The position numbers were made by a program, and so were the translations under genes. Shown here piece by piece: positions 38,298-46,405 of a DNA stretch of 49,302 nucleotides. The stretch is from Candidatus Altarchaeum sp. (GTDB taxonomy: Archaea > Altiarchaeota > Altiarchaeia > Altiarchaeales > Altiarchaeaceae), in NCBI GenBank assembly GCA_018260615.1, contig JAGWDQ010000081.1, positions 1 through 49,302 of the forward strand, given 5' to 3'. Every line of letters starts with the position of its first letter. Positions within the stretch are counted from its first letter, which is position 1. A model generated the notes under the pieces. The model worked only from the letters and a program-made list of their open reading frames with translations, was not told the DNA's origin and searched no databases.

Positions 38298-39146
38298 ATG
38301 GAAATAAAACTTGACAGATCTAAAACAGTGCATGAAAATGCAGCCAGCTATTATGAAAAGGCAAAGCACATGCGGGAAAAGATTGAAGGAGCAAAAAAGG
38401 CCCTGACAGATACATTAAAAAAAATTGACGACCTGAAAAAGAAAAAAAACACACTTGAAAAAAACAGGGAAATTTCAGTGAAAAATTTAAATGAAAAAAT
38501 AGCCAAAAAAAGAGCAAAACAATGGTATGAGAATTTCAGATGGATATTTATTGAAAATTTTCTGGTTGTTGGCGGAAAGGATGCAACGAGCAATGAAATT
38601 TTAATAAAAAAGCACACCGAACCAAATGATTTAGTTATGCATGCAGATGTCTTCGGTTCGCCGTTTTTTGTCATCAAAAACGGAAAAAATGCAAACGATG
38701 AAATTTTAAAGAATGTTGCATCAATTTGTGCATCACATTCAAGGGCGTGGAAGAATGGTGTCGGAAGTTCTGATGTTTACTGTGTCAATCCGGAGCAGGT
38801 CTCAAAGACGGCAAAAGCAGGTGAATTTCTGGCAAAGGGTTCGTTTATGATTTACGGAGAAAGAAGATGGTTCAGGAATACGCCGCTAAAAATTTATATC
38901 TGTTTTAAAGACGGGGAAATTTTGAGCACAGGCATTATGAGAACTGATGAAAACGGGCAAATTAGTGAGCAGGGTTGTCCGCATTATGTTTGTTTAACTC
39001 CCGGAACAGAAAAAGCAAAGGACCTGATAAAGAAAATAAAGAAATTTTACGAAAATAAGAAAATTCCGGAAATTTCAAATATTCCCGATGATGAGATTAT
39101 GCGGTTAATTCCTTACGGGCAGGGACAAATAATTGAAATGAAATAA
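38298..39146 (+). CDS. NFACT RNA-binding domain protein (C-terminal half of Rqc2/FbpA)
   Basis: IKLD....HENAASYY, QWYENFRW, GGKDATSNE, HADVFGSP, SRAWK, QVSKT..GE..KGSFMIYG. Confidence 0.85.
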   Translation: MEIKLDRSKTVHENAASYYEKAKHMREKIEGAKKALTDTLKKIDDLKKKKNTLEKNREISVKNLNEKIAKKRAKQWYENFRWIFIENFLVVGGKDATSNEILIKKHTEPNDLVMHADVFGSPFFVIKNGKNANDEILKNVASICASHSRAWKNGVGSSDVYCVNPEQVSKTAKAGEFLAKGSFMIYGERRWFRNTPLKIYICFKDGEILSTGIMRTDENGQISEQGCPHYVCLTPGTEKAKDLIKKIKKFYENKKIPEISNIPDDEIMRLIPYGQGQIIEMK

Positions 39147-39204: not shown

Positions 39205-40788
39205 ATGAATACAACGAATACAAAGGTCTGCCTTATAACAGTTTATGACAAGCGGGGCATAGTAAATTTTGCACACAGTCTCATAGATGCGGGCTATAAA
39301 ATAATTTCAACATCCGGAACAGCAAAGTTGCTGACAGAAAACGAAATATGTGTTGAAGAAATTTCGGACATAACGAAATTTCCCGAAATTTTAAATGGAA
39401 GGGTTAAAACATTACATCCTGCAATATTCGGCGGATTGCTTGCGGATAAAAACAACGAAGAACATATATCCGAAATAAAAAAATACAACATCCTTCCGAT
39501 TGATTTGGTTGTTGTAAATTTATATCCGTTTAAAAATACTGTGAGCAAAGAGCATTCCATGGATGAAGCAATTGAAAATATTGACATTGGAGGCGTTTCA
39601 TTAATTCGTGCAGCGGCAAAAAATTATAAAAATGTTGCGGTTGTTGTTGACCCGCAGGATTATAATATAATTGCAGAGGAAATTAAAAACAATCCAAACA
39701 AAGAAATTTCCCTGCCAACAAGAGAAAAATTATGTGCGAAGGCGTTTGCTTATGTGTCCGATTATGATATTGCCATTCATAATTATTTTTCAGGACGCTT
39801 TGCTAAATTTGAAAACGGATTTGGTAATAAATTTTTTATTTCGGGGGAAAAATTTTGCGATATGAGATACGGAGAAAATCCTCACCAGAATGCAGCGGTC
39901 TATAAAACAAATAATATTGTTCAAAATTTCCTGCTTGATTCAATTGTTTATGAAGGCAAAAAACTTTCTTTCAATAATATTCTGGATTTAAATCTGGCAT
40001 TAAAAGTTGTCGGCGAATTTGATGAGCCGGCATGCTGTGTAGTTAAACATGCAATTCCCTGCGGTGCTGCAATAGGAGAAAATTTAGACGAAGCATACAA
40101 TTTAGCTTATGAATGTGATTCAAAGTCGGCTTTCGGAGGGATATTTGGATTTAACGGAAAGGTTACAGAATACATTGCAAACAATATAAGTAAAATTTTC
40201 TTTGAATGTATAATTGCAAAGGATTATGAAGATAGTGCGCTGGAAATATTGAAAAAAAAGAAAAATTTAAGAATATTAAAAAAGGATGCAGGCGATTTAA
40301 ATTTAAATGAATACAACATAAGAAAATTTTCAGGCGGATTTATGATTCAGGATGAAGACAAAAAGCATCTGACACTTGATGAACTGAAAAATTTACCTGT
40401 TGTGACGAACAAAAAACCAACTGCTCAAGAGTATAGAGCAATGTTCTTTGCAGATAAGATTGTCAAGCATGTCCGGTCTAATGCAATTGTTCTGGCAAAA
40501 GATAGTTATACTGTCGGAATCGGTTCGGGACAAACAAGCAGGGTTGATGCGGTTAAAATTTCCATAATGAAGGCAAACGAAAATAAAGATGATGGACTAA
40601 CAAATGGCTCTGTTTTGGCATCGGATGCTTTCTTTCCGTTCAGGGATGGAATAGATGAGGCGGCAAAGGGAGGAATTTCAGCGGTAATTCAGCCGGGGGG
40701 GTCTATAAGAGATAAGGAAGTGATAGATGCGTGCAATGAATATAATATTGCTATGGTATTTACGAATATAAGACACTTCCTGCATTGA
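39205..40788 (+). CDS. purH: Bifunctional AICAR transformylase/IMP cyclohydrolase
   Basis: GRVKTLHP, IDIGG, RYGENPHQ, VKHAIPCG, SDAFFPF, QPGGSIRD. Confidence 0.96.
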   Translation: MNTTNTKVCLITVYDKRGIVNFAHSLIDAGYKIISTSGTAKLLTENEICVEEISDITKFPEILNGRVKTLHPAIFGGLLADKNNEEHISEIKKYNILPIDLVVVNLYPFKNTVSKEHSMDEAIENIDIGGVSLIRAAAKNYKNVAVVVDPQDYNIIAEEIKNNPNKEISLPTREKLCAKAFAYVSDYDIAIHNYFSGRFAKFENGFGNKFFISGEKFCDMRYGENPHQNAAVYKTNNIVQNFLLDSIVYEGKKLSFNNILDLNLALKVVGEFDEPACCVVKHAIPCGAAIGENLDEAYNLAYECDSKSAFGGIFGFNGKVTEYIANNISKIFFECIIAKDYEDSALEILKKKKNLRILKKDAGDLNLNEYNIRKFSGGFMIQDEDKKHLTLDELKNLPVVTNKKPTAQEYRAMFFADKIVKHVRSNAIVLAKDSYTVGIGSGQTSRVDAVKISIMKANENKDDGLTNGSVLASDAFFPFRDGIDEAAKGGISAVIQPGGSIRDKEVIDACNEYNIAMVFTNIRHFLH

Positions 40789-40844
40789 AATAAAATTTAT
40801 ATTTGCTAAAGAGATTACGATTTATAATACCTTTTTTCATTCTT

Positions 40845-41366
40845 TCATTTATAAATAATATCTTCAAGTCCGTACACAGAGAAACCATCCTTTCCGCTTA
40901 AATTTCTTAACAACCAGTCGTGTGATATCAAAACCCAGTTATATCCCTTATTTTCGTTTTTTAATTTCTTTGCCGCTAAATAAACAGAGGTGTCTGCAAA
41001 TCCACACTTCACAAACATTTTTTCGTTTAGTATCTCCTCTTTTCCTATACATTCTTCTCCGATTTTTTTAAAGAAATCTTTCATGAACATCCAAAATTCT
41101 TCCCCCCGGTTGCCTTTCATGTCGTATTTGGTTTCAACTATATCATAGGTCTCTGCCAAAACATGAGGAGTAACAACAATATTCTTTATTATGCTGGTTA
41201 TAGATTTATACAAAATTTCCCGTTCTTCTTTAATTCTCATTTGTGAAAATTTTTCATCAATTTTTTTCATATATTCATCAGTCACCCTGTTCTCATTGCT
41301 ACACCATATAATCAAAAGCATGATTATCAGAGGTTCCGTATCAACCACAAATTTTTTTGGTTTCAT
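40845..41366 (-). CDS. PIN-domain (VapC-like) nuclease, copy A
   Basis: VVDTEP, LAET, GFADTS and SHD acidic tetrad. Confidence 0.8.
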   Translation of the reverse strand: MKPKKFVVDTEPLIIMLLIIWCSNENRVTDEYMKKIDEKFSQMRIKEEREILYKSITSIIKNIVVTPHVLAETYDIVETKYDMKGNRGEEFWMFMKDFFKKIGEECIGKEEILNEKMFVKCGFADTSVYLAAKKLKNENKGYNWVLISHDWLLRNLSGKDGFSVYGLEDIIYK

Positions 41367-41378
41367 TTTTGCTTCATC

Positions 41379-41999
41379 TTATTTTCCCGCTTCAAATCCT
41401 TTAAAAGACAAAATGGACCCTTCGGAAGAAAAACTGAAGTGATGAACTTTTGGAAACACATCGAACCGCGCATAATATATTACAATCATTAACATTTGCC
41501 ATTTTTCTTCTCTACGCACCACAAGGACAGGAATATAGTCAACATATTTAAATGTTGTTCCCTCGCCTAAAATTTCTTTTGCTTTCTTACAAATGTCATT
41601 TACATCTTTTTCTTCTGATTTAATATCATCTGTCTCTTTTTCAACTATTGGTGTAAATCTCTCATACGGTGAGATGGCACAAATTTTTCCATAAGAATTA
41701 ACATAAAAACAAAAATTAAAATGCTCTGATATCTTTTTTATGCTATTATCAACTTGTAATTCTTTCATTACCGCAGCAAATTCTGATGGCGGAAGATTAA
41801 TTATTGCCGATAAAGTATCCCATATCTCTTTATCAAACTCAGATTTAATCTCACCGGAAATAATCCAAAAGTTCCGTTCCTTATTGTAATCAGTACCGGT
41901 AACAACAAAGCCAACACCTTTGTTATTTTCGGTTATAAACTTTCTGACTATTCCAACCGCTTCCACTTCCGTTATAGAGATTTTTGTTTCTTTGTCCAT
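41379..41999 (-). CDS. Uncharacterised ~206-aa protein, PIN partner, copy A
   Basis: Clear paralog of 43157-43780 (WII.GEI, CKKAKE.L..GTTF.Y, FDV.PKV..F....G...SFKGF). Confidence 0.8.
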   Translation of the reverse strand: MDKETKISITEVEAVGIVRKFITENNKGVGFVVTGTDYNKERNFWIISGEIKSEFDKEIWDTLSAIINLPPSEFAAVMKELQVDNSIKKISEHFNFCFYVNSYGKICAISPYERFTPIVEKETDDIKSEEKDVNDICKKAKEILGEGTTFKYVDYIPVLVVRREEKWQMLMIVIYYARFDVFPKVHHFSFSSEGSILSFKGFEAGK

Positions 42000-42068
42000 T
42001 TTAGATTTAATAAAGTTTAATAAAAATTTAGATTTAATGGCATAGTATTTTTGTAATTTTGGGAAAAT

Positions 42069-42752
42069 TTAAAATTTATCAACCAATCGCACTTTTTTTA
42101 TCAAAAATTCCCCTCTGATATTATCCCAAATTTTCTCTGCTTCATCAATTACCAATCTCTTTTTGAACAAAGGACAATCAGTTACAAAGGTTTCATACTC
42201 TCCACCTTCTCCGCCTATGTTTATGTGAAATTTATTCTCCAGTTTTTTCAGGTCCTCTAACGCCTTCAAGTCCAGTTCTCTCCCGAGCCAGCTTTCATCA
42301 AATCCGTCCGCATATACTCCGACAATTAAAATTTTAAAATTTAAATTTATTGCCTCTCTTATTAAGTCCTCATGACTTTTTTTCCAGTAAGGTGCATATA
42401 CCTCTAAATTTAACTCATCACAGATTTTCTTTACTCTGCTATACTGATAATTTGATGAGACCGCACCGACACAAACACCTTCAATTGCACATTTGTCCTT
42501 TAAAATTTTTATTTCTCTTTTCAAATCATCTATCTCTTTTTCTTTGTCTTTGTCCGATTCCTCCATTATTATCGGAATATTCATCGCTTCCGCAGAAATT
42601 TTTGCAAATTTTATGTTCGGATAGTGAAACATATAACTCTCTTTGTCAGGAACAAATGAAAGTAAGGCAACAATTTCATTATTTGCATTTATTGCTTTGT
42701 ATGTTGCTATTGTGCTGTCCTTTCCTCCCGAAAACAATGAGACCAGTTTCAT
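42069..42752 (-). CDS. dph6: Diphthine-ammonia ligase
   Basis: SLFSGGKDS, ESYMFH, GAVSSNYQ, GEGGEYETFVTDCPLF. Confidence 0.93.
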   Translation of the reverse strand: MKLVSLFSGGKDSTIATYKAINANNEIVALLSFVPDKESYMFHYPNIKFAKISAEAMNIPIIMEESDKDKEKEIDDLKREIKILKDKCAIEGVCVGAVSSNYQYSRVKKICDELNLEVYAPYWKKSHEDLIREAINLNFKILIVGVYADGFDESWLGRELDLKALEDLKKLENKFHINIGGEGGEYETFVTDCPLFKKRLVIDEAEKIWDNIRGEFLIKKVRLVDKF

Positions 42753-42850
42753 TCTTAAAGATTATTTATATTTCCTTTCCTAATTTTTCTTTGAAATTAT
42801 AATTAGTTTGTATAAAATTAACTAAAATTTAATAACAATCTGTAATCAAA

Positions 42851-43138
42851 ATGAAAGTTCCGGAAAAAGTAATGGCACATTGTCCATTTTGTAATGCTCA
42901 CACGGAGCATGTGGTGACCCTTAACCGAAAAGGCGAAGTAAGGCACAATAGTGAAGGTACAAGAAAATTTAGGGAAATTAAAAAGGGCTACGGAGGGATG
43001 GCAAGAACTCCGAAAAAGCCGGTCTTTAAGACGGCGAAGAGAGTTACGCTTATTTTAAAGTGCAAAGTATGTAGCAAAAAGCATCAAAAAGTATATGACC
43101 GGACAAAGAAGACAACAGAGATAGTGAAGGTGGATTAA
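42851..43138 (+). CDS. rpl44e: 50S ribosomal protein L44e
   Basis: MKVP....HCPFCNAHTEH, GYGG, K..KR..L.LKC..C. Confidence 0.92.
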   Translation: MKVPEKVMAHCPFCNAHTEHVVTLNRKGEVRHNSEGTRKFREIKKGYGGMARTPKKPVFKTAKRVTLILKCKVCSKKHQKVYDRTKKTTEIVKVD

Positions 43139-43156
43139 TGAGAAATTTAATTAAAA

Positions 43157-43780
43157 ATGCCCGACAAAATTATAGTGTCCGGAACAGAGGCCATTAATAT
43201 GGTTGCCGGCTTTGCGCATGAAGTATTAGGTAAAGGGGCAGGTTTTATTCCGGAAACATCAGATTATGATGAGCATTCTAATTTATGGATTATTCAGGGA
43301 GAAATTAGATATATGGGCGATTATGCTTACCTGTTAAGTCATTTTTTAGAAGTTATGAATAAGCCATCGCAAGAATTTATTGAGGTATTTAATAATTTTA
43401 ATTTGACAAAAAAAGTTATTGAATCGTTGAAAGATTTTAAATTTCGTTTTTATGTAAGTCCTGACGGAAAAAAATTACTTGTTATTATTCATGAAGCACT
43501 TTTTCTAATATTACCGCCAAAGCTGAAGAACATGCACCGTTATATGATTGGAGAAGAAGATGCAGACGCAAAATATATTTGTAAAAAAGCAAAAGAACTT
43601 TTGTCAACGGGAACAACTTTTAGATATTTGGATTTCTTACCAACTATTGCAATATATAATAGGGACAGGTGGATGGTACTTGCTATTGTTTCATACTACT
43701 CCGGATTTGATGTGATTCCAAAGGTGTATTATTTTGAGTATTTAAGAGATGGAACATTTGTATCTTTCAAAGGATTTTAA
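43157..43780 (+). CDS. Uncharacterised ~207-aa protein, PIN partner, copy B
   Basis: Paralog of 41379-41999; directly upstream of a PIN gene. Confidence 0.8.
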   Translation: MPDKIIVSGTEAINMVAGFAHEVLGKGAGFIPETSDYDEHSNLWIIQGEIRYMGDYAYLLSHFLEVMNKPSQEFIEVFNNFNLTKKVIESLKDFKFRFYVSPDGKKLLVIIHEALFLILPPKLKNMHRYMIGEEDADAKYICKKAKELLSTGTTFRYLDFLPTIAIYNRDRWMVLAIVSYYSGFDVIPKVYYFEYLRDGTFVSFKGF

Positions 43781-43796
43781 CAAGAGTACGTAAAAA

Positions 43797-44405
43797 ATGA
43801 AAATAATTTTAGATACGGAACCTTTAATAATGTTGCTTTTATTTAGGGAGTATGTTGTATCCGAAGAAAAACAAAAACAGGATAAAATCAAAAAATTTTT
43901 AGAACAACAATTACATGGAGATATAAAAGATCAGGAAGAGTATTTTAAATTTTTTGAAAGAGAGTTAAAAAACAGGAATATCCTTGTTACTTCTTATGTT
44001 TTGGCAGAAGTTACTGATATGATTGAGAACCACTATTTTAAAGGAAAAGATTACTGTGAATTAATGGAAGCATCTGCGGATTTTTTTAAAAAGCTTTATG
44101 AAGAGTATATGGAAAAAGACACAATAATAGATATGATGATAGAAAAGAAGGATAAACATGTGGAAGCAGGAAAAGAATCAAAATATTTCATAGAATTCGG
44201 ATTTGCAAATATATCTATTTATTTAGCCCTGACAAAAGAAATAGAAAAAAATAAAAAGAACAAATATAATATCAATGTTTTTCTACTTTCGGAAGATAAA
44301 TATCTCAAGAATTTCTGCACTTATGTGGAAAAATTCAATAATGTAATGACTTTTAATGAATTTGTTTACCAAATGAAACTTAGATCTGAGCTATATATAA
44401 AATGA
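43797..44405 (+). CDS. PIN-domain nuclease, copy B
   Basis: ILDTEPL, LAEV, GFANIS, SED; paralog of 40845-41366. Confidence 0.8.
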   Translation: MKIILDTEPLIMLLLFREYVVSEEKQKQDKIKKFLEQQLHGDIKDQEEYFKFFERELKNRNILVTSYVLAEVTDMIENHYFKGKDYCELMEASADFFKKLYEEYMEKDTIIDMMIEKKDKHVEAGKESKYFIEFGFANISIYLALTKEIEKNKKNKYNINVFLLSEDKYLKNFCTYVEKFNNVMTFNEFVYQMKLRSELYIK

Positions 44406-44980
44406 AAAGTCATAAAATTTCCGGTGATTATGACGGAAGCCAGATAAAACCATTTTGGGCAAGGGAAAAATTTGGTGTTTCCGAGGACAATATTGTTGTA
44501 ATGGTTGGAAGTATGGATGTGAAGTTTGAAAATATGGTTGATATGGATGATTTGAGAGACCAAAAAGCAATCAGAACTGATAAAGCAATTCATTTCTTAA
44601 TTGAACATTATGACGGCAAAGATATACGACTGGCGTATTACAGGCAGAGGATTTTCTGTATCGTTGTTGAAGAAATTTTAAGAAAATACAACATAAATGC
44701 AGAAAGGAAGGGAAGTGATCTGTATGTTGAAGGAAAGAAGTTGAGCGTAAGCATAGCAACAACAGGCAAAACACAAAAGATTCATTTCGGAATAAATTTA
44801 ACTACAAAGGGAACGCCAAGTGATGTGAAAACAATTGCACTTGAAAATTTTGAATGTTTCAAAGATGATAAAAATATTAATAATGTAAACATCAATAAAT
44901 TTATTGATGATGTTTTAAATCGCTATATTTTTGATGTTGAAAAGATTGAAAAGGATATAATGAAGACAAAAATTTTTTAA
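44402..44980 (+). CDS. DUF366 family protein (biotin/lipoate ligase-like fold)
   Basis: YDGSQI...W, MVDMDD, HFLIEH, GSDLY..GKKLSVSIAT, HFGIN. Confidence 0.85.
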   Translation: MKSHKISGDYDGSQIKPFWAREKFGVSEDNIVVMVGSMDVKFENMVDMDDLRDQKAIRTDKAIHFLIEHYDGKDIRLAYYRQRIFCIVVEEILRKYNINAERKGSDLYVEGKKLSVSIATTGKTQKIHFGINLTTKGTPSDVKTIALENFECFKDDKNINNVNINKFIDDVLNRYIFDVEKIEKDIMKTKIF

Positions 44981-45244
44981 TAATCCGAAGTTTTCCGCCA
45001 ATATAAAAGTTCGGTCGTGGTTTTATAGTTAACGCTTTCTAAATTTAAATATATTTATTAACAAATCATAATTATTAACAAAAATAACAGAAATAAAATT
45101 TCATTCAAAGGTTAGATATACTAATCCGCAAGTAAAATTTGGAAATTTTCTGTTAGAATGTTTTTAAACTCATCGTAATATTTGTCTAAATTATCTAAAA
45201 AGTTACAAAAAACAGATGTGGGTTAGTATATACGAATATTGCAA

Positions 45245-45335
45245 ATATAACTCCATATCGGGATGATATGCACAATGCGGATATATCTTCAGATTGGAGG
45301 GATATACGCAGTACTGCGTATATAACGAGTTATAT
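45245..45335 (+). repeat. attC-like palindromic site 1
   Basis: atataactc...gagttatat 9-bp outer IR (AAC/GTT core), inner catatc/gatatg, and a 22-bp perfect palindrome atatacgcagtactgcgtatat at 45302-45323. Confidence 0.5.
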
Positions 45336-45412
45336 GAAATTGCCCACATTTCAAGAGAAAAATAACATACAGCTGGGCGTCTTAATCAAAAGTAAAAACA
45401 GAAGGTGATAAA

Positions 45413-46405
45413 ATGGGAATATTTGATAAGTTGTTTGGAAAGAAGAAAACAGAGAAAGTAGAATCAGAGACACGACCAGAAGTAAAACAAGTTAATGAGC
45501 GCGGAACAGATCACGATGAGGCAAGAAAACAATTCCTGCAAGATGCAAAGTCACGTGATTTAAGAGCATTTCGCGTTTGGGGTCCTGACCAAAAAATTGA
45601 AATCTCTGGTGATTGGATGACACTGTTTTGGAGTCAGCGTCCTATAGAAGTATATGCACACCCTGATAGGGTAATTGCATTTCTTAACCAAAATATGCTT
45701 CCATATCTTTGGCCAGATGATATGAAGTATAAAGATTCTGTGAACTCAGAGGAAAAACCACAAAATTGTCTTCGCCTTCAATGGATAGTATCCTATTTAC
45801 ATCATCCAGATTCGGAAGTAATCATTAAAACGCTCCAGACCAAAATACCCACTGATATTTTGGAAACTGTTGGTATGACAGATGCACTTGGCGATTTACT
45901 TATACACTCAGATACGAAAGTGCGTAATGAAGCAGCAAAAGTTGCTTGGAGATGTAGTGATGCGTTATTTGAGGGTTTATTCAAGATATTAAGTTCGCAG
46001 GGAATGATGCCATCAGGAATCAGTCCGAGGGAAGGAAAACAAGCTGTTGAAATACTAGGAAATCATTGTCCACCCGAACGAAGACAACTTTTTCAGAAGT
46101 TAGTTCTTGATGCTTTTGGGCCAACTGTTGCGAAAACGAAACAGAAATTGACATCGGAATCAATTAAGGATATCCGAAAAGTATGCGGAAAATGCGGGAT
46201 AACCATGGAAGAGCGTATTCGATGGTGGCATGCACCAAAACCTCAAGGAGTTGTAAGAATTGGTTGTGATGATCGTGAACTGTTTCTTTATTGCAATCAT
46301 TGCCAGAAAAGGATTTGCGGAGGGTGCTCAATTGATCTTGGCATGACCGCAGGGTGCCCATTTTGCATGAAAGAGCTTGTATATATGGATGGAACAAGTC
46401 AGTAG
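45413..46405 (+). CDS. Hypothetical protein: helical (HEAT-like) region plus Cys-rich C-terminal zinc finger(s)
   Basis: gaaggtga RBS; HSDTKVRNEAAKVAW HEAT-like motif; CGKC, C, CNHC..ICGGC, CPFC. Confidence 0.75.
   Translation: MGIFDKLFGKKKTEKVESETRPEVKQVNERGTDHDEARKQFLQDAKSRDLRAFRVWGPDQKIEISGDWMTLFWSQRPIEVYAHPDRVIAFLNQNMLPYLWPDDMKYKDSVNSEEKPQNCLRLQWIVSYLHHPDSEVIIKTLQTKIPTDILETVGMTDALGDLLIHSDTKVRNEAAKVAWRCSDALFEGLFKILSSQGMMPSGISPREGKQAVEILGNHCPPERRQLFQKLVLDAFGPTVAKTKQKLTSESIKDIRKVCGKCGITMEERIRWWHAPKPQGVVRIGCDDRELFLYCNHCQKRICGGCSIDLGMTAGCPFCMKELVYMDGTSQ

What the first reader, a model, noticed from the sequence alone, without database searches (positions are those of the whole stretch)
40845..44405. 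Unknown ~207-aa protein + PIN nuclease module, present twice in mirror orientation
The same two-gene unit follows dph6 leftwards and rpl44e rightwards, with 12-16-nt gaps. The upstream partner is much larger than VapB-type antitoxins and matches no family I recognise. Conserved blocks (EA..V..F, WII.GEI, F.FYV...GK, CKKAKE.L..GTTF.Y.D..P, W..L.IV.YY..FDV.PKV..F....G...SFKGF) suggest two small alpha/beta (PepSY-like) lobes. PIN A has a full acidic tetrad; PIN B has D-to-N at the third site (GFAN). Both are appended to translation genes. This is a strong candidate for an undescribed TA, defence or RNA-processing system.
Basis: partly seen in the sequence, partly recalled or inferred. Interest (0 to 1): 0.75.

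Follow-up and report, generated by a model that had tools for sequence, protein, structure and literature searches.

The report
Duplicated PIN nuclease with two-lobe partner
An Altiarchaeum genome carries several fast-evolving, variably present copies of a two-gene cassette: a PIN ribonuclease preceded by a 207-residue two-lobe protein of no described family, most likely a toxin-antitoxin-type module with a new kind of partner, though function is untested.

Summary
Two mirror-image pairs flank the divergent dph6/rpl44e genes. Each pair is a 206-207-aa partner followed, after 12 or 16 nt, by a PIN-fold gene.

- **Paralogy.** The partners are 35% identical and the PINs 34%.
- **Copies.** A third pair lies on another contig of the same Candidatus Altiarchaeum MAG.
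- **PIN fold.** It is secure (Z 12.8 to PAE2754/VapC). D-E-D-D is intact in copy A; copy B has N at the third site, while its orthologues keep D.
- **Partner.** It matches no Pfam, NCBIfam, PADLOC or PDB sequence. An exhaustive search of 1.84 billion representatives found 9 proteins. The model shows two helix-plus-four-strand lobes, weakly PepSY/cystatin/BLIP-like.
- **Linkage.** Partner and PIN were adjacent in all 9 contexts that could be judged.
- **Accessory behaviour.** Copy A is absent in one congener. Copy B is absent in another and is a pseudogene pair in a third. Module proteins are 54-62% identical where flanking genes are 82-93%.
- **Wider family.** The same PIN clade in Methanoperedens, Aenigmarchaeota and Altiarchaeum follows an overlapping, uncharacterised 74-110-aa gene. 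That gene resembles the N-lobe (hhalign 83%).

Best reading: a VapBC-like toxin-antitoxin or defence cassette with an inhibitor-type partner and no recognised DNA-binding domain. Earlier notes of this scan report PIN plus PepSY-like pairs on other DNA. Whether those are the same family is unknown.

The parts
40845..41366 (-). PIN A: 173-aa PIN-fold nuclease with all four acidic residues (D9, E72, D125, D151)
   Evidence: AF2 model pLDDT 87. Foldseek top hits are almost all PIN domains. VIA Z 12.8 to PAE2754 with 126 aligned at rmsd 3.1, and 125 chains at Z>=8 including many VapC toxins. Acidic residues are conserved in a 12-sequence alignment. Pfam PIN_4 reaches only E 0.07.
41379..41999 (-). 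Partner A: 206-aa two-lobe protein of no described family, 12 nt upstream of PIN A
   Evidence: No family hit. 35% identical to partner B. Orthologue followed by a PIN orthologue downstream of dph6 in congener G001.
42000..42068 (-). 69-nt A/T-rich spacer between the dph6 stop and the partner A start; possible own promoter (inference only)
   Evidence: Sequence read. A TTTATTAAA-like stretch lies about 13-21 nt before the ATG on the minus strand. No archaeal promoter tool was available.
42069..42752 (-). dph6 (diphthamide synthase): flanking landmark, not part of the module
   Evidence: Pfam PF01902, E 6e-67. In G003 it abuts purH directly with no module A.
42851..43138 (+). rpl44e: flanking landmark, not part of the module
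   Evidence: Pfam PF00935, E 3e-14. In G001 and in L008 it is followed directly by DUF366 with no module B.
43157..43780 (+). Partner B: 207-aa two-lobe protein, 18 nt after the rpl44e stop
   Evidence: AF2 model pLDDT 79, pTM 0.80. Lobe 1: helix 9-24, strands 29-38 and 43-51, a helical insert 56-89, strands 96-100 and 107-112. Lobe 2: helix 138-152 plus four strands 157-206. Weak PepSY/BLIP/cystatin/NTF2-like fold hits, Z<=5.9. C-lobe TM 0.79 to an archaeal 75-aa cluster.
43797..44405 (+). PIN B: 202-aa PIN-like paralogue with N in place of the third acidic residue and a ~15-aa insertion; its stop overlaps the DUF366 start (44402)
   Evidence: Alignments. Orthologues P0008, P0009 and the L044 copy keep D. 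The 4-nt overlap with the DUF366 start is seen in the window and in L044.

Best explanation
These are paralogous copies of a lineage-restricted two-gene cassette that works like a type II (VapBC-like) toxin-antitoxin or defence module.

The downstream gene encodes a Mg-dependent PIN endoribonuclease, the toxin or effector. The upstream gene encodes a cytoplasmic two-lobe alpha+beta protein with an inhibitor-type (PepSY/cystatin/BLIP-like) shape. I infer that this protein binds and blocks the nuclease until it is degraded or displaced.

The 207-aa partner looks like an enlarged derivative of a 74-110-aa partner that precedes the same PIN clade in other archaea. Its N-lobe resembles that small partner, interrupted by a helical insert, and a second lobe has been added.

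Shown here: gene pairs, paralogy, PIN fold and catalytic residues, strict linkage, presence/absence and decay among congeners, and faster divergence than the flanks. Inferred: nuclease activity, physical binding and neutralisation, and the trigger. Copy B, with D-to-N at a catalytic site, may be enzymatically weakened.
For: 1. PIN fold with a conserved D/E/D/D set.
2. Operon-like pairing at 6-16 nt gaps, with the partner upstream, in 9 of 9 contexts that could be judged: window A and B, C101 C, G001 A, L044 B, L008-10 C, L014 C and D, L035.
3. The partner and PIN identity matrices track each other (Mantel r 0.88, p 2e-4). The pair therefore duplicated and diverged as a unit. This shows co-inheritance, not binding.
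4. Accessory behaviour. Module B is missing in G001 and L008. Module A is missing in G003. In G003 module B is decayed, with stops, a truncated partner and a split PIN.
5. Module proteins are 54-62% identical where flanking genes are 82-93% identical.
6. There are five members of this PIN clade in a 2.2-Mb MAG.
7. The same PIN clade (hhalign prob 99.9%, E 4e-32) follows an overlapping 74-aa gene in Methanoperedens, once between hsdS and hsdR of a type I R-M operon. In Aenigmarchaeota it follows an overlapping 89-aa gene beside HepT/MNT genes.
8. The small-partner family aligns to the N-lobe of the large partner (hhalign prob 82.6%, E 1e-5, 62 columns).
9. The partners are mildly acidic, and the Methanoperedens small partner is strongly acidic against a basic PIN.
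Against: - No experiment and no expression data are available.
- The partner has no recognised DNA-binding domain, so the autoregulation typical of VapB is unexplained.
- The partner's fold matches are weak (Z<=5.9), so 'inhibitor-type' is only a resemblance.
- Copy C is retained at the same site in two lineages. That would also fit a domesticated cellular role.
- In this genome the PINs are not basic.
- PADLOC has no model that matches.
- The genome is an 87%-complete MAG, so absences in congeners carry the usual assembly caveat. However, the empty sites were read directly on contiguous DNA.
Confidence: 0.55

Rival explanations
1. Sensor-effector defence module. The two-lobe partner is a sensor or adaptor that holds the PIN inactive and releases it on binding a viral or foreign trigger (abortive-infection type). 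It is not an unstable antitoxin.
For: The related small-partner + PIN cassette sits inside a type I R-M operon in Methanoperedens and beside HepT/MNT genes in Aenigmarchaeota. The partner evolves faster than the PIN in module B (61 vs 73%). The added lobe and the helical insert are lineage-specific elaborations. The window holds other candidate defence genes according to unchecked notes.
Against: No PADLOC match. No phage-linked signal in PHROGs. Modules A-C are not in recognisable defence islands; they lie among housekeeping genes.
Confidence: 0.2
2. Housekeeping RNA-processing nuclease with a dedicated cofactor, recruited to translation-related operons (dph6, rpl44e).
For: Modules A and B are adjacent to translation genes. 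Module B is wedged between rpl44e and DUF366 with an 18-nt gap and a 4-nt overlap, so it is probably co-transcribed. Copy C is syntenic in two lineages. The best PDB sequence match is the PIN domain of MJ1533, a PIN-KH protein (E 0.005).
Against: The sites beside dph6 and rpl44e are empty or decayed in congeners. The family is confined to one genus of 31 genera searched in the phylum. Divergence is much faster than in the flanks. Multi-copy paralogy with a catalytic-site loss in copy B is untypical of a core enzyme.
Confidence: 0.1
3. Largely decaying or neutral remnants. These are selfish duplicates on their way to loss, with no present function in this genome.
For: PIN B has lost a catalytic Asp. 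The G003 copy is a pseudogene pair. The distribution is patchy.
Against: All six genes of the three modules in this genome have intact frames. Conserved blocks and three or four catalytic residues are kept at only 26-37% paralogue identity. Orthologues of A, B and C are intact in other populations.
Confidence: 0.07

Closest known systems
VapBC type II toxin-antitoxin systems (e.g. Shigella/F-plasmid VapBC, M. tuberculosis VapBC pairs, Pyrobaculum PAE2754, Pyrococcus VapC4)
   Same: Stand-alone PIN nuclease with a D/E/D/D site, encoded directly downstream of a partner gene. Multi-copy, patchy and variably present. Fold Z 10-12.8 to these toxins.
   Different: The partner is 200+ aa instead of about 70-90. 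It has no RHH, AbrB, PHD or HTH domain detected and an alpha+beta two-lobe shape. The PIN is longer, with three helices between strands 1 and 2, and falls below every Pfam PIN threshold.
Uncharacterised archaeal 'small partner + PIN' cassette
   Same: Same PIN clade (hhalign 99.9%). Partner upstream. The N-lobe of the large partner aligns with the small partner (prob 83%). Two such cassettes coexist in the same genome.
   Different: There the partner is a single 74-110-aa lobe and the genes overlap. Here the partner has a helical insert and a second lobe, with 6-16 nt gaps. No name, Pfam family or paper was found for either form.
PepSY (PF03413), BLIP-like and cystatin inhibitor domains
   Same: Helix packed on a four-stranded antiparallel sheet, often in tandem. 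Many of these domains inhibit or regulate enzymes.
   Different: No sequence match at E<=10. Structural scores are weak (Z<=5.9). PepSY domains are usually extracytoplasmic, whereas these proteins have no signal peptide or TM segment (inspection).
ParA-associated 'PIN + HelixGK' two-gene module (bioRxiv 10.64898/2026.10.19.760177)
   Same: That preprint describes a PIN RNase gene paired with a gene for a novel helices-plus-beta-sheet domain, next to ParA-like ATPases. Copy C here lies beside an ArsA/ParA-superfamily ATPase gene.
   Different: Identity could not be tested: no accessions or supplements are held. The ATPase here looks like a housekeeping ArsA-family ATPase encoded directly after the SHMT gene and is 93% conserved. 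Copies A and B have no such neighbour.

Membership tests
PIN domain superfamily | Rossmann-like alpha/beta/alpha fold with a parallel sheet | tested here: met
   AF2 pLDDT 87. VIA Z 12.8 (126 aligned, rmsd 3.1) to PAE2754, with 125 chains at Z>=8, nearly all PIN.
PIN domain superfamily | Four conserved acidic residues at the metal site | tested here: met
   D9, E72, D125 and D151 in PIN A. The first two are invariant and the third nearly so across 12 sequences. PIN B alone has N at the third site.
PIN domain superfamily | Match to a Pfam PIN model above the gathering score | tested here: not met
   PIN_4 E 0.07 (13.8 bits vs 21.9). PIN E 0.066 for the C109 paralogue. This clade is not covered by Pfam.
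VapBC type II toxin-antitoxin | Partner gene immediately upstream of the PIN gene in one operon, linked across genomes | tested here: met
   Gaps of 6-16 nt, one of 114 nt in L014 D and one of 80 nt in L035. 9 of 9 contexts.
VapBC type II toxin-antitoxin | Antitoxin with an N-terminal DNA-binding domain (RHH, AbrB, PHD/YefM, HTH) | tested here: inconclusive
   No such domain by Pfam, NCBIfam or PDB sequence search, and none among the fold matches. The three-helix insert at 56-89 was not tested alone.
VapBC type II toxin-antitoxin | Toxin arrests growth and the cognate antitoxin binds and neutralises it | not testable with these tools
   Needs expression and binding experiments.
PepSY (PF03413) | Sequence match to the family model | tested here: not met
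   No hit at E<=1 or E<=10 for large or small partners.
PepSY (PF03413) | Helix plus four-stranded antiparallel sheet fold | tested here: inconclusive
   Topology fits. Best Z is 5.9 to 3elg. YpmB, YpeB, BLIP-like and cystatin entries score Z 4-5. C-lobe TM 0.79 over 70 residues to an archaeal 75-aa cluster auto-named PepSY.
Archaeal small-partner family (A8, undescribed) | Sequence homology of the large partner to the 74-110-aa partners of the same PIN clade | tested here: inconclusive
   N-lobe: hhalign prob 82.6%, E 1e-5, 62 columns. C-lobe: not significant (E 0.02, prob 2%).
Known anti-phage defence systems (PADLOC-DB 2.0) | Match of any component to a system model | tested here: not met
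   Only a chance-level Cas8b hit (E 0.008, 13 bits) for partner A; none for the others.

The most novel reading that the evidence does not exclude
Archaea carry an unrecognised class of PIN toxin modules. In it the neutralising partner is an enzyme-inhibitor-type alpha+beta protein (PepSY/cystatin-like) with no DNA-binding domain. In Altiarchaeum this partner has grown into a two-lobe protein, and the extra lobe and helical insert add a new function such as trigger sensing or DNA binding. The cassette spreads by inserting into housekeeping operons (rpl44e-DUF366, dph6-purH), so that it is expressed with, and hard to lose from, essential transcription units.
Probability: 0.3. Interest if true: 0.7.

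Novelty: new variant of a known kind. Interest (0 to 1): 0.52.

Why it matters
PIN/VapC modules are the most abundant toxin-antitoxin type in archaea, yet their partners are assumed to be small DNA-binding proteins. A partner built from inhibitor-type lobes would be a different way of controlling a PIN nuclease.

This partner has no recognisable DNA-binding domain. It occurs both as a 74-110-aa single lobe and as a 207-aa two-lobe form. Three diverged copies in one genome give a natural cross-neutralisation set for studying specificity.

Altiarchaeum is an abundant uncultivated subsurface primary producer with known viruses, and its accessory and defence gene content is poorly known.

The clean empty, occupied and decayed sites among congeners also document how such cassettes enter and leave housekeeping operons.

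Tried and rejected
- **Complex prediction.** PIN A with partner A, using alignments A5 and A6, returned 'no answer' (best score 0.26, mark 0.32). It counts neither for nor against binding. Two earlier attempts failed because the machine was busy.
- **Family libraries.** Pfam, NCBIfam, PADLOC and PHROGs gave only chance-level hits for the partners.
- **PDB sequence search.** A search with the partner profile gave nothing below E 0.19.
- **Foldseek.** The partner model against PDB gave no match at E<=0.001.
- **Lobe comparisons.** The N-lobe against the C-lobe showed no sequence sign of an internal duplication (E 0.3). The C-lobe against the small partners was not significant.
- **Rfam.** Nothing in 40000-45500.
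- **Promoter and terminator scan.** The bacterial-type scan was no better than shuffles and does not apply to archaea.
- **Insertion signatures.** No flanking direct repeats that would mark an insertion mechanism were found. No remnants of module A were found in L008.
- **Literature.** Searches for PIN/VapC with PepSY or cystatin-like partners, and for Altiarchaeum TA systems, found no description.
- **HelixGK preprint.** It could not be matched to this family.
- **Earlier notes of this scan.** Sequence look-ups found no look-alikes of this PIN clade.
Full report
**1. What is there**

The region holds four ORFs in two mirror-image pairs around the divergent dph6 (42069-42752, -) and rpl44e (42851-43138, +) genes.

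| Module | Partner | PIN-like gene | Gap |
|---|---|---|---|
| A | 41379-41999 (-), 206 aa | 40845-41366 (-), 173 aa | 12 nt |
| B | 43157-43780 (+), 207 aa | 43797-44405 (+), 202 aa | 16 nt |

- The partners share 35% identity over their whole length (E 1e-42).
- The PIN-likes share 34% identity (E 2e-16).
- The best-conserved coding blocks still show up as 34-78-nt inverted DNA repeats at 73-82%.
- Module B starts 18 nt after the rpl44e stop. Its last codons overlap the start of a DUF366 gene at 44402.
- Module A is separated from dph6 by a 69-nt A/T-rich spacer and ends 56 nt from the convergent purH.
- No Rfam family lies in the region.

**2. Organism and copy number**

The window is contig C81 of a 2.2-Mb MAG (87% complete, 2.5% contaminated). 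A congeneric contig carries the title Candidatus Altarchaeum sp..

- The genome has a third pair on contig C101: partner 210 aa, PIN 176 aa, 6-nt gap.
- Two more PIN genes of the same clade lie on C96 and C109. Each is preceded by an overlapping 100-110-aa gene, and C109 has two such small genes in tandem.

**3. The downstream gene is a PIN nuclease**

Pfam sees it only at chance level (PIN_4 E 0.07). The fold evidence is much stronger.

- A 12-sequence alignment gives an AlphaFold model with pLDDT 87.
- Its Foldseek list is almost entirely PIN domains.
- VIA-align gives Z 12.8 to PAE2754 (126 aligned, rmsd 3.1). VapC toxins from Pyrococcus, Shigella, Salmonella and M. tuberculosis score Z 10-11. 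In all, 125 chains reach Z>=8.
- The profile also finds the PIN domain of MJ1533 in PDB by sequence (E 0.005).
- D9 and E72 are invariant, and D125 nearly so. A fourth acidic position (D151) is D/E in most sequences.
- PIN B is the only full-length member with N at the third site. Its orthologues P0008, P0009 and the L044 copy keep D. The change is therefore recent and probably weakens catalysis.

**4. The partner**

No hit was found in Pfam, NCBIfam, PADLOC or PHROGs, or by profile search of PDB sequences.

- A word-indexed search of 5.8 billion proteins found three relatives.
- An exhaustive HMMER profile search of 1.84 billion cluster representatives found nine, all short-contig metagenomic proteins.
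- Among the 61 genomes of the phylum, only the window's genus has the partner, in 3 of its 4 genomes.
- The AlphaFold model (11 sequences, pLDDT 79, pTM 0.80) has two lobes of the same topology, a helix packed on four antiparallel strands. The first lobe is interrupted by a three-helix insert at residues 56-89.
- Foldseek finds nothing significant.
- The exhaustive VIA search gives only weak matches (Z<=5.9). They are dominated by PepSY-like, BLIP-like, cystatin and NTF2-like proteins: 3elg, 4exr, YpmB, YpeB and cystatins.
- In the ESM Atlas the C-lobe superposes on an archaeal 75-aa cluster auto-named 'PepSY domain-containing' (TM 0.79, rmsd 1.5 over 70 residues).
- No signal peptide or TM segment is apparent. 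The partners are mildly acidic.

It is not a demonstrated family membership.

**5. Linkage and unit behaviour**

Every large-partner gene whose downstream DNA is available is followed by a PIN of this clade:

- window A and B;
- C101 copy C;
- G001 copy A (205 + 184 aa);
- L044 copy B (204 + 203 aa, again between rpl44e and DUF366);
- L008-L010 copy C (199 + 166 aa);
- L014, a tandem of two modules (211 + 179 and 210 + 176 aa);
- L035, a divergent 234-aa partner plus a 146-aa PIN (hhalign 99.8%).

Pairwise identities of partners and of PINs across eight modules are strongly correlated (Mantel r 0.88, permutation p 2e-4). This shows that the pair duplicated and diverged as a unit. It does not by itself show physical co-evolution.

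**6. Accessory character**

| Genome | Module A site (after dph6) | Module B site (after rpl44e) |
|---|---|---|
| Window | intact | intact (PIN B has D-to-N) |
| G001 | intact | empty; rpl44e followed directly by DUF366 |
| G003 | empty; dph6 abuts purH with a 25-nt spacer | partner truncated with in-frame stops, PIN split |
| GCA_974483635.1 (L008) | no remnant of module A found | empty |

In L008 only copy C is present.

Module proteins diverge much faster than their neighbours.

| Comparison | Flanking genes | Module proteins |
|---|---|---|
| Window vs G001 | rpl44e 93%, dph6 83%, DUF366 82% | partner A 54%, PIN A 57% |
| Window vs L008 | ArsA 93%, purD 89% | partner C 60%, PIN C 62% |

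The association with translation genes is therefore positional and variable, not a conserved functional link.

**7. Wider family**

The PIN profile also reaches 160-180-aa proteins outside the genus.

- In Aenigmarchaeota the PIN gene overlaps an upstream 89-aa gene beside HepT/MNT genes.
- On a short metagenomic contig (L037, organism not named) it overlaps a 74-aa gene.
- These small proteins and the 100-110-aa Altiarchaeum ones align end to end as one family.
- A search with that alignment finds 89 proteins, all unnamed or 'hypothetical' and without Pfam domains. Of the few that carry a source name, most are from Methanoperedens or ANME-2, and one is from Altiarchaeales.
- In Methanoperedens the 74-aa gene overlaps a 175-aa gene that is the same PIN clade (hhalign 99.9%, E 4e-32). 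One such cassette sits between hsdS and hsdR of a type I restriction-modification operon.
- One exception pairs the small protein with DUF2283 instead of a PIN.
- Profile-profile comparison links the small family to the N-lobe of the 207-aa partner (prob 82.6%, E 1e-5, 62 columns ending where the helical insert begins). The C-lobe gives no significant sequence signal.

I read the large partner as an enlarged derivative of the small one. This is moderately supported, not proven.

**8. Mechanism**

The anatomy is that of a type II toxin-antitoxin-like or defence cassette. It has:

- a PIN RNase with an intact metal site;
- an always-linked upstream partner;
- multiple diverged paralogues per genome;
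- presence/absence polymorphism and pseudogenisation among close relatives;
- faster evolution than the surrounding genes;
- relatives embedded in R-M and TA neighbourhoods.

I therefore take the partner to be a protein inhibitor of the PIN (confidence about 0.55). A sensor-type defence role is the main variant (0.2). A housekeeping RNA-processing role (0.1) and neutral decay (0.07) are less likely.

Binding, nuclease activity, the trigger and regulation are all inferred. The complex prediction gave no verdict and is recorded only as tried.

**9. Comparison with what is known**

The module works like VapBC. However, the partner shows no detectable VapB-type DNA-binding domain (inconclusive), and the PIN lies outside Pfam's models.

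- Full-text searches found no paper describing PIN/VapC paired with PepSY- or cystatin-like partners, and none on Altiarchaeum TA systems.
- A 2026 preprint mentions a ParA-linked 'PIN + HelixGK' module. Copy C lies beside an ArsA-family ATPase gene. That gene follows the SHMT gene directly and looks housekeeping, and identity with the preprint's system could not be checked.
- Earlier AI notes of this scan report 'PIN + PepSY-like small partner' cassettes in other genomes. Sequence look-ups found no look-alikes of the present clade among them. I treat them as concordant leads, not as support.

**10. Verdict**

This is a new variant of a known kind: a VapBC-like cassette with a novel two-lobe partner confined to Altiarchaeum, derived from a broader undescribed archaeal small-partner + PIN family. 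Interest is moderate (0.52).

No expression evidence could be obtained.

Noticed in passing
L034:834-1962 (G000 contig C109): Two tandem small-partner genes (100 and 106 aa, 73% identical) precede one PIN gene of the same clade. The second overlaps the PIN start. This layout could be a precursor of a fused two-lobe partner.
   Followed up: partly
L038:2501-3209 and L039 (Methanoperedens contigs): A 74-aa small partner plus a 175-aa PIN cassette (44-nt overlap) sits between hsdS and hsdR of a type I restriction-modification operon. A PD-(D/E)XK gene lies between hsdM and hsdS.
   Followed up: partly
L042:2501-4116 and L043 (Aenigmarchaeota): A member of the small-partner family (87 aa) is followed by a DUF2283 gene instead of a PIN. 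A second pair, 116 aa + DUF2283, follows. The downstream component appears to have been swapped.
   Followed up: no
L014:385-3069: Two complete modules lie in tandem (211 + 179 aa, then 210 + 176 aa). The second is 97-99% identical to the window genome's copy C but has a different upstream neighbour than on contig C101.
   Followed up: partly
L005:810-1850 (G003): Module B is decayed in a congener. The partner keeps only its first ~110 codons, with several stops. The PIN is split into two fragments. rpl44e and DUF366 on either side are intact.
   Followed up: yes
window 44402-44405; L044:1616-1619: The PIN B stop overlaps the DUF366 start by 4 nt in two diverged populations. DUF366 is therefore probably translated from a transcript that runs through the inserted module.
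   Followed up: partly
L003:2137-2394 and L008:3086-3313: A conserved 75-85-aa gene of unknown function (73% identical between lineages) lies on the opposite strand between the ArsA-family ATPase gene and partner C.
   Followed up: no
window 38298-39146: A 282-aa protein has an NFACT-R_1 domain and only the last ~70 positions of NFACT_N. This is a short NFACT-like form.
   Followed up: no
window 41589-41642 and 42489-42542: A 54-nt direct repeat at 76% identity links partner A and dph6. Both stretches code for K/E/D-rich segments on the minus strand, so it is probably compositional.
   Followed up: no
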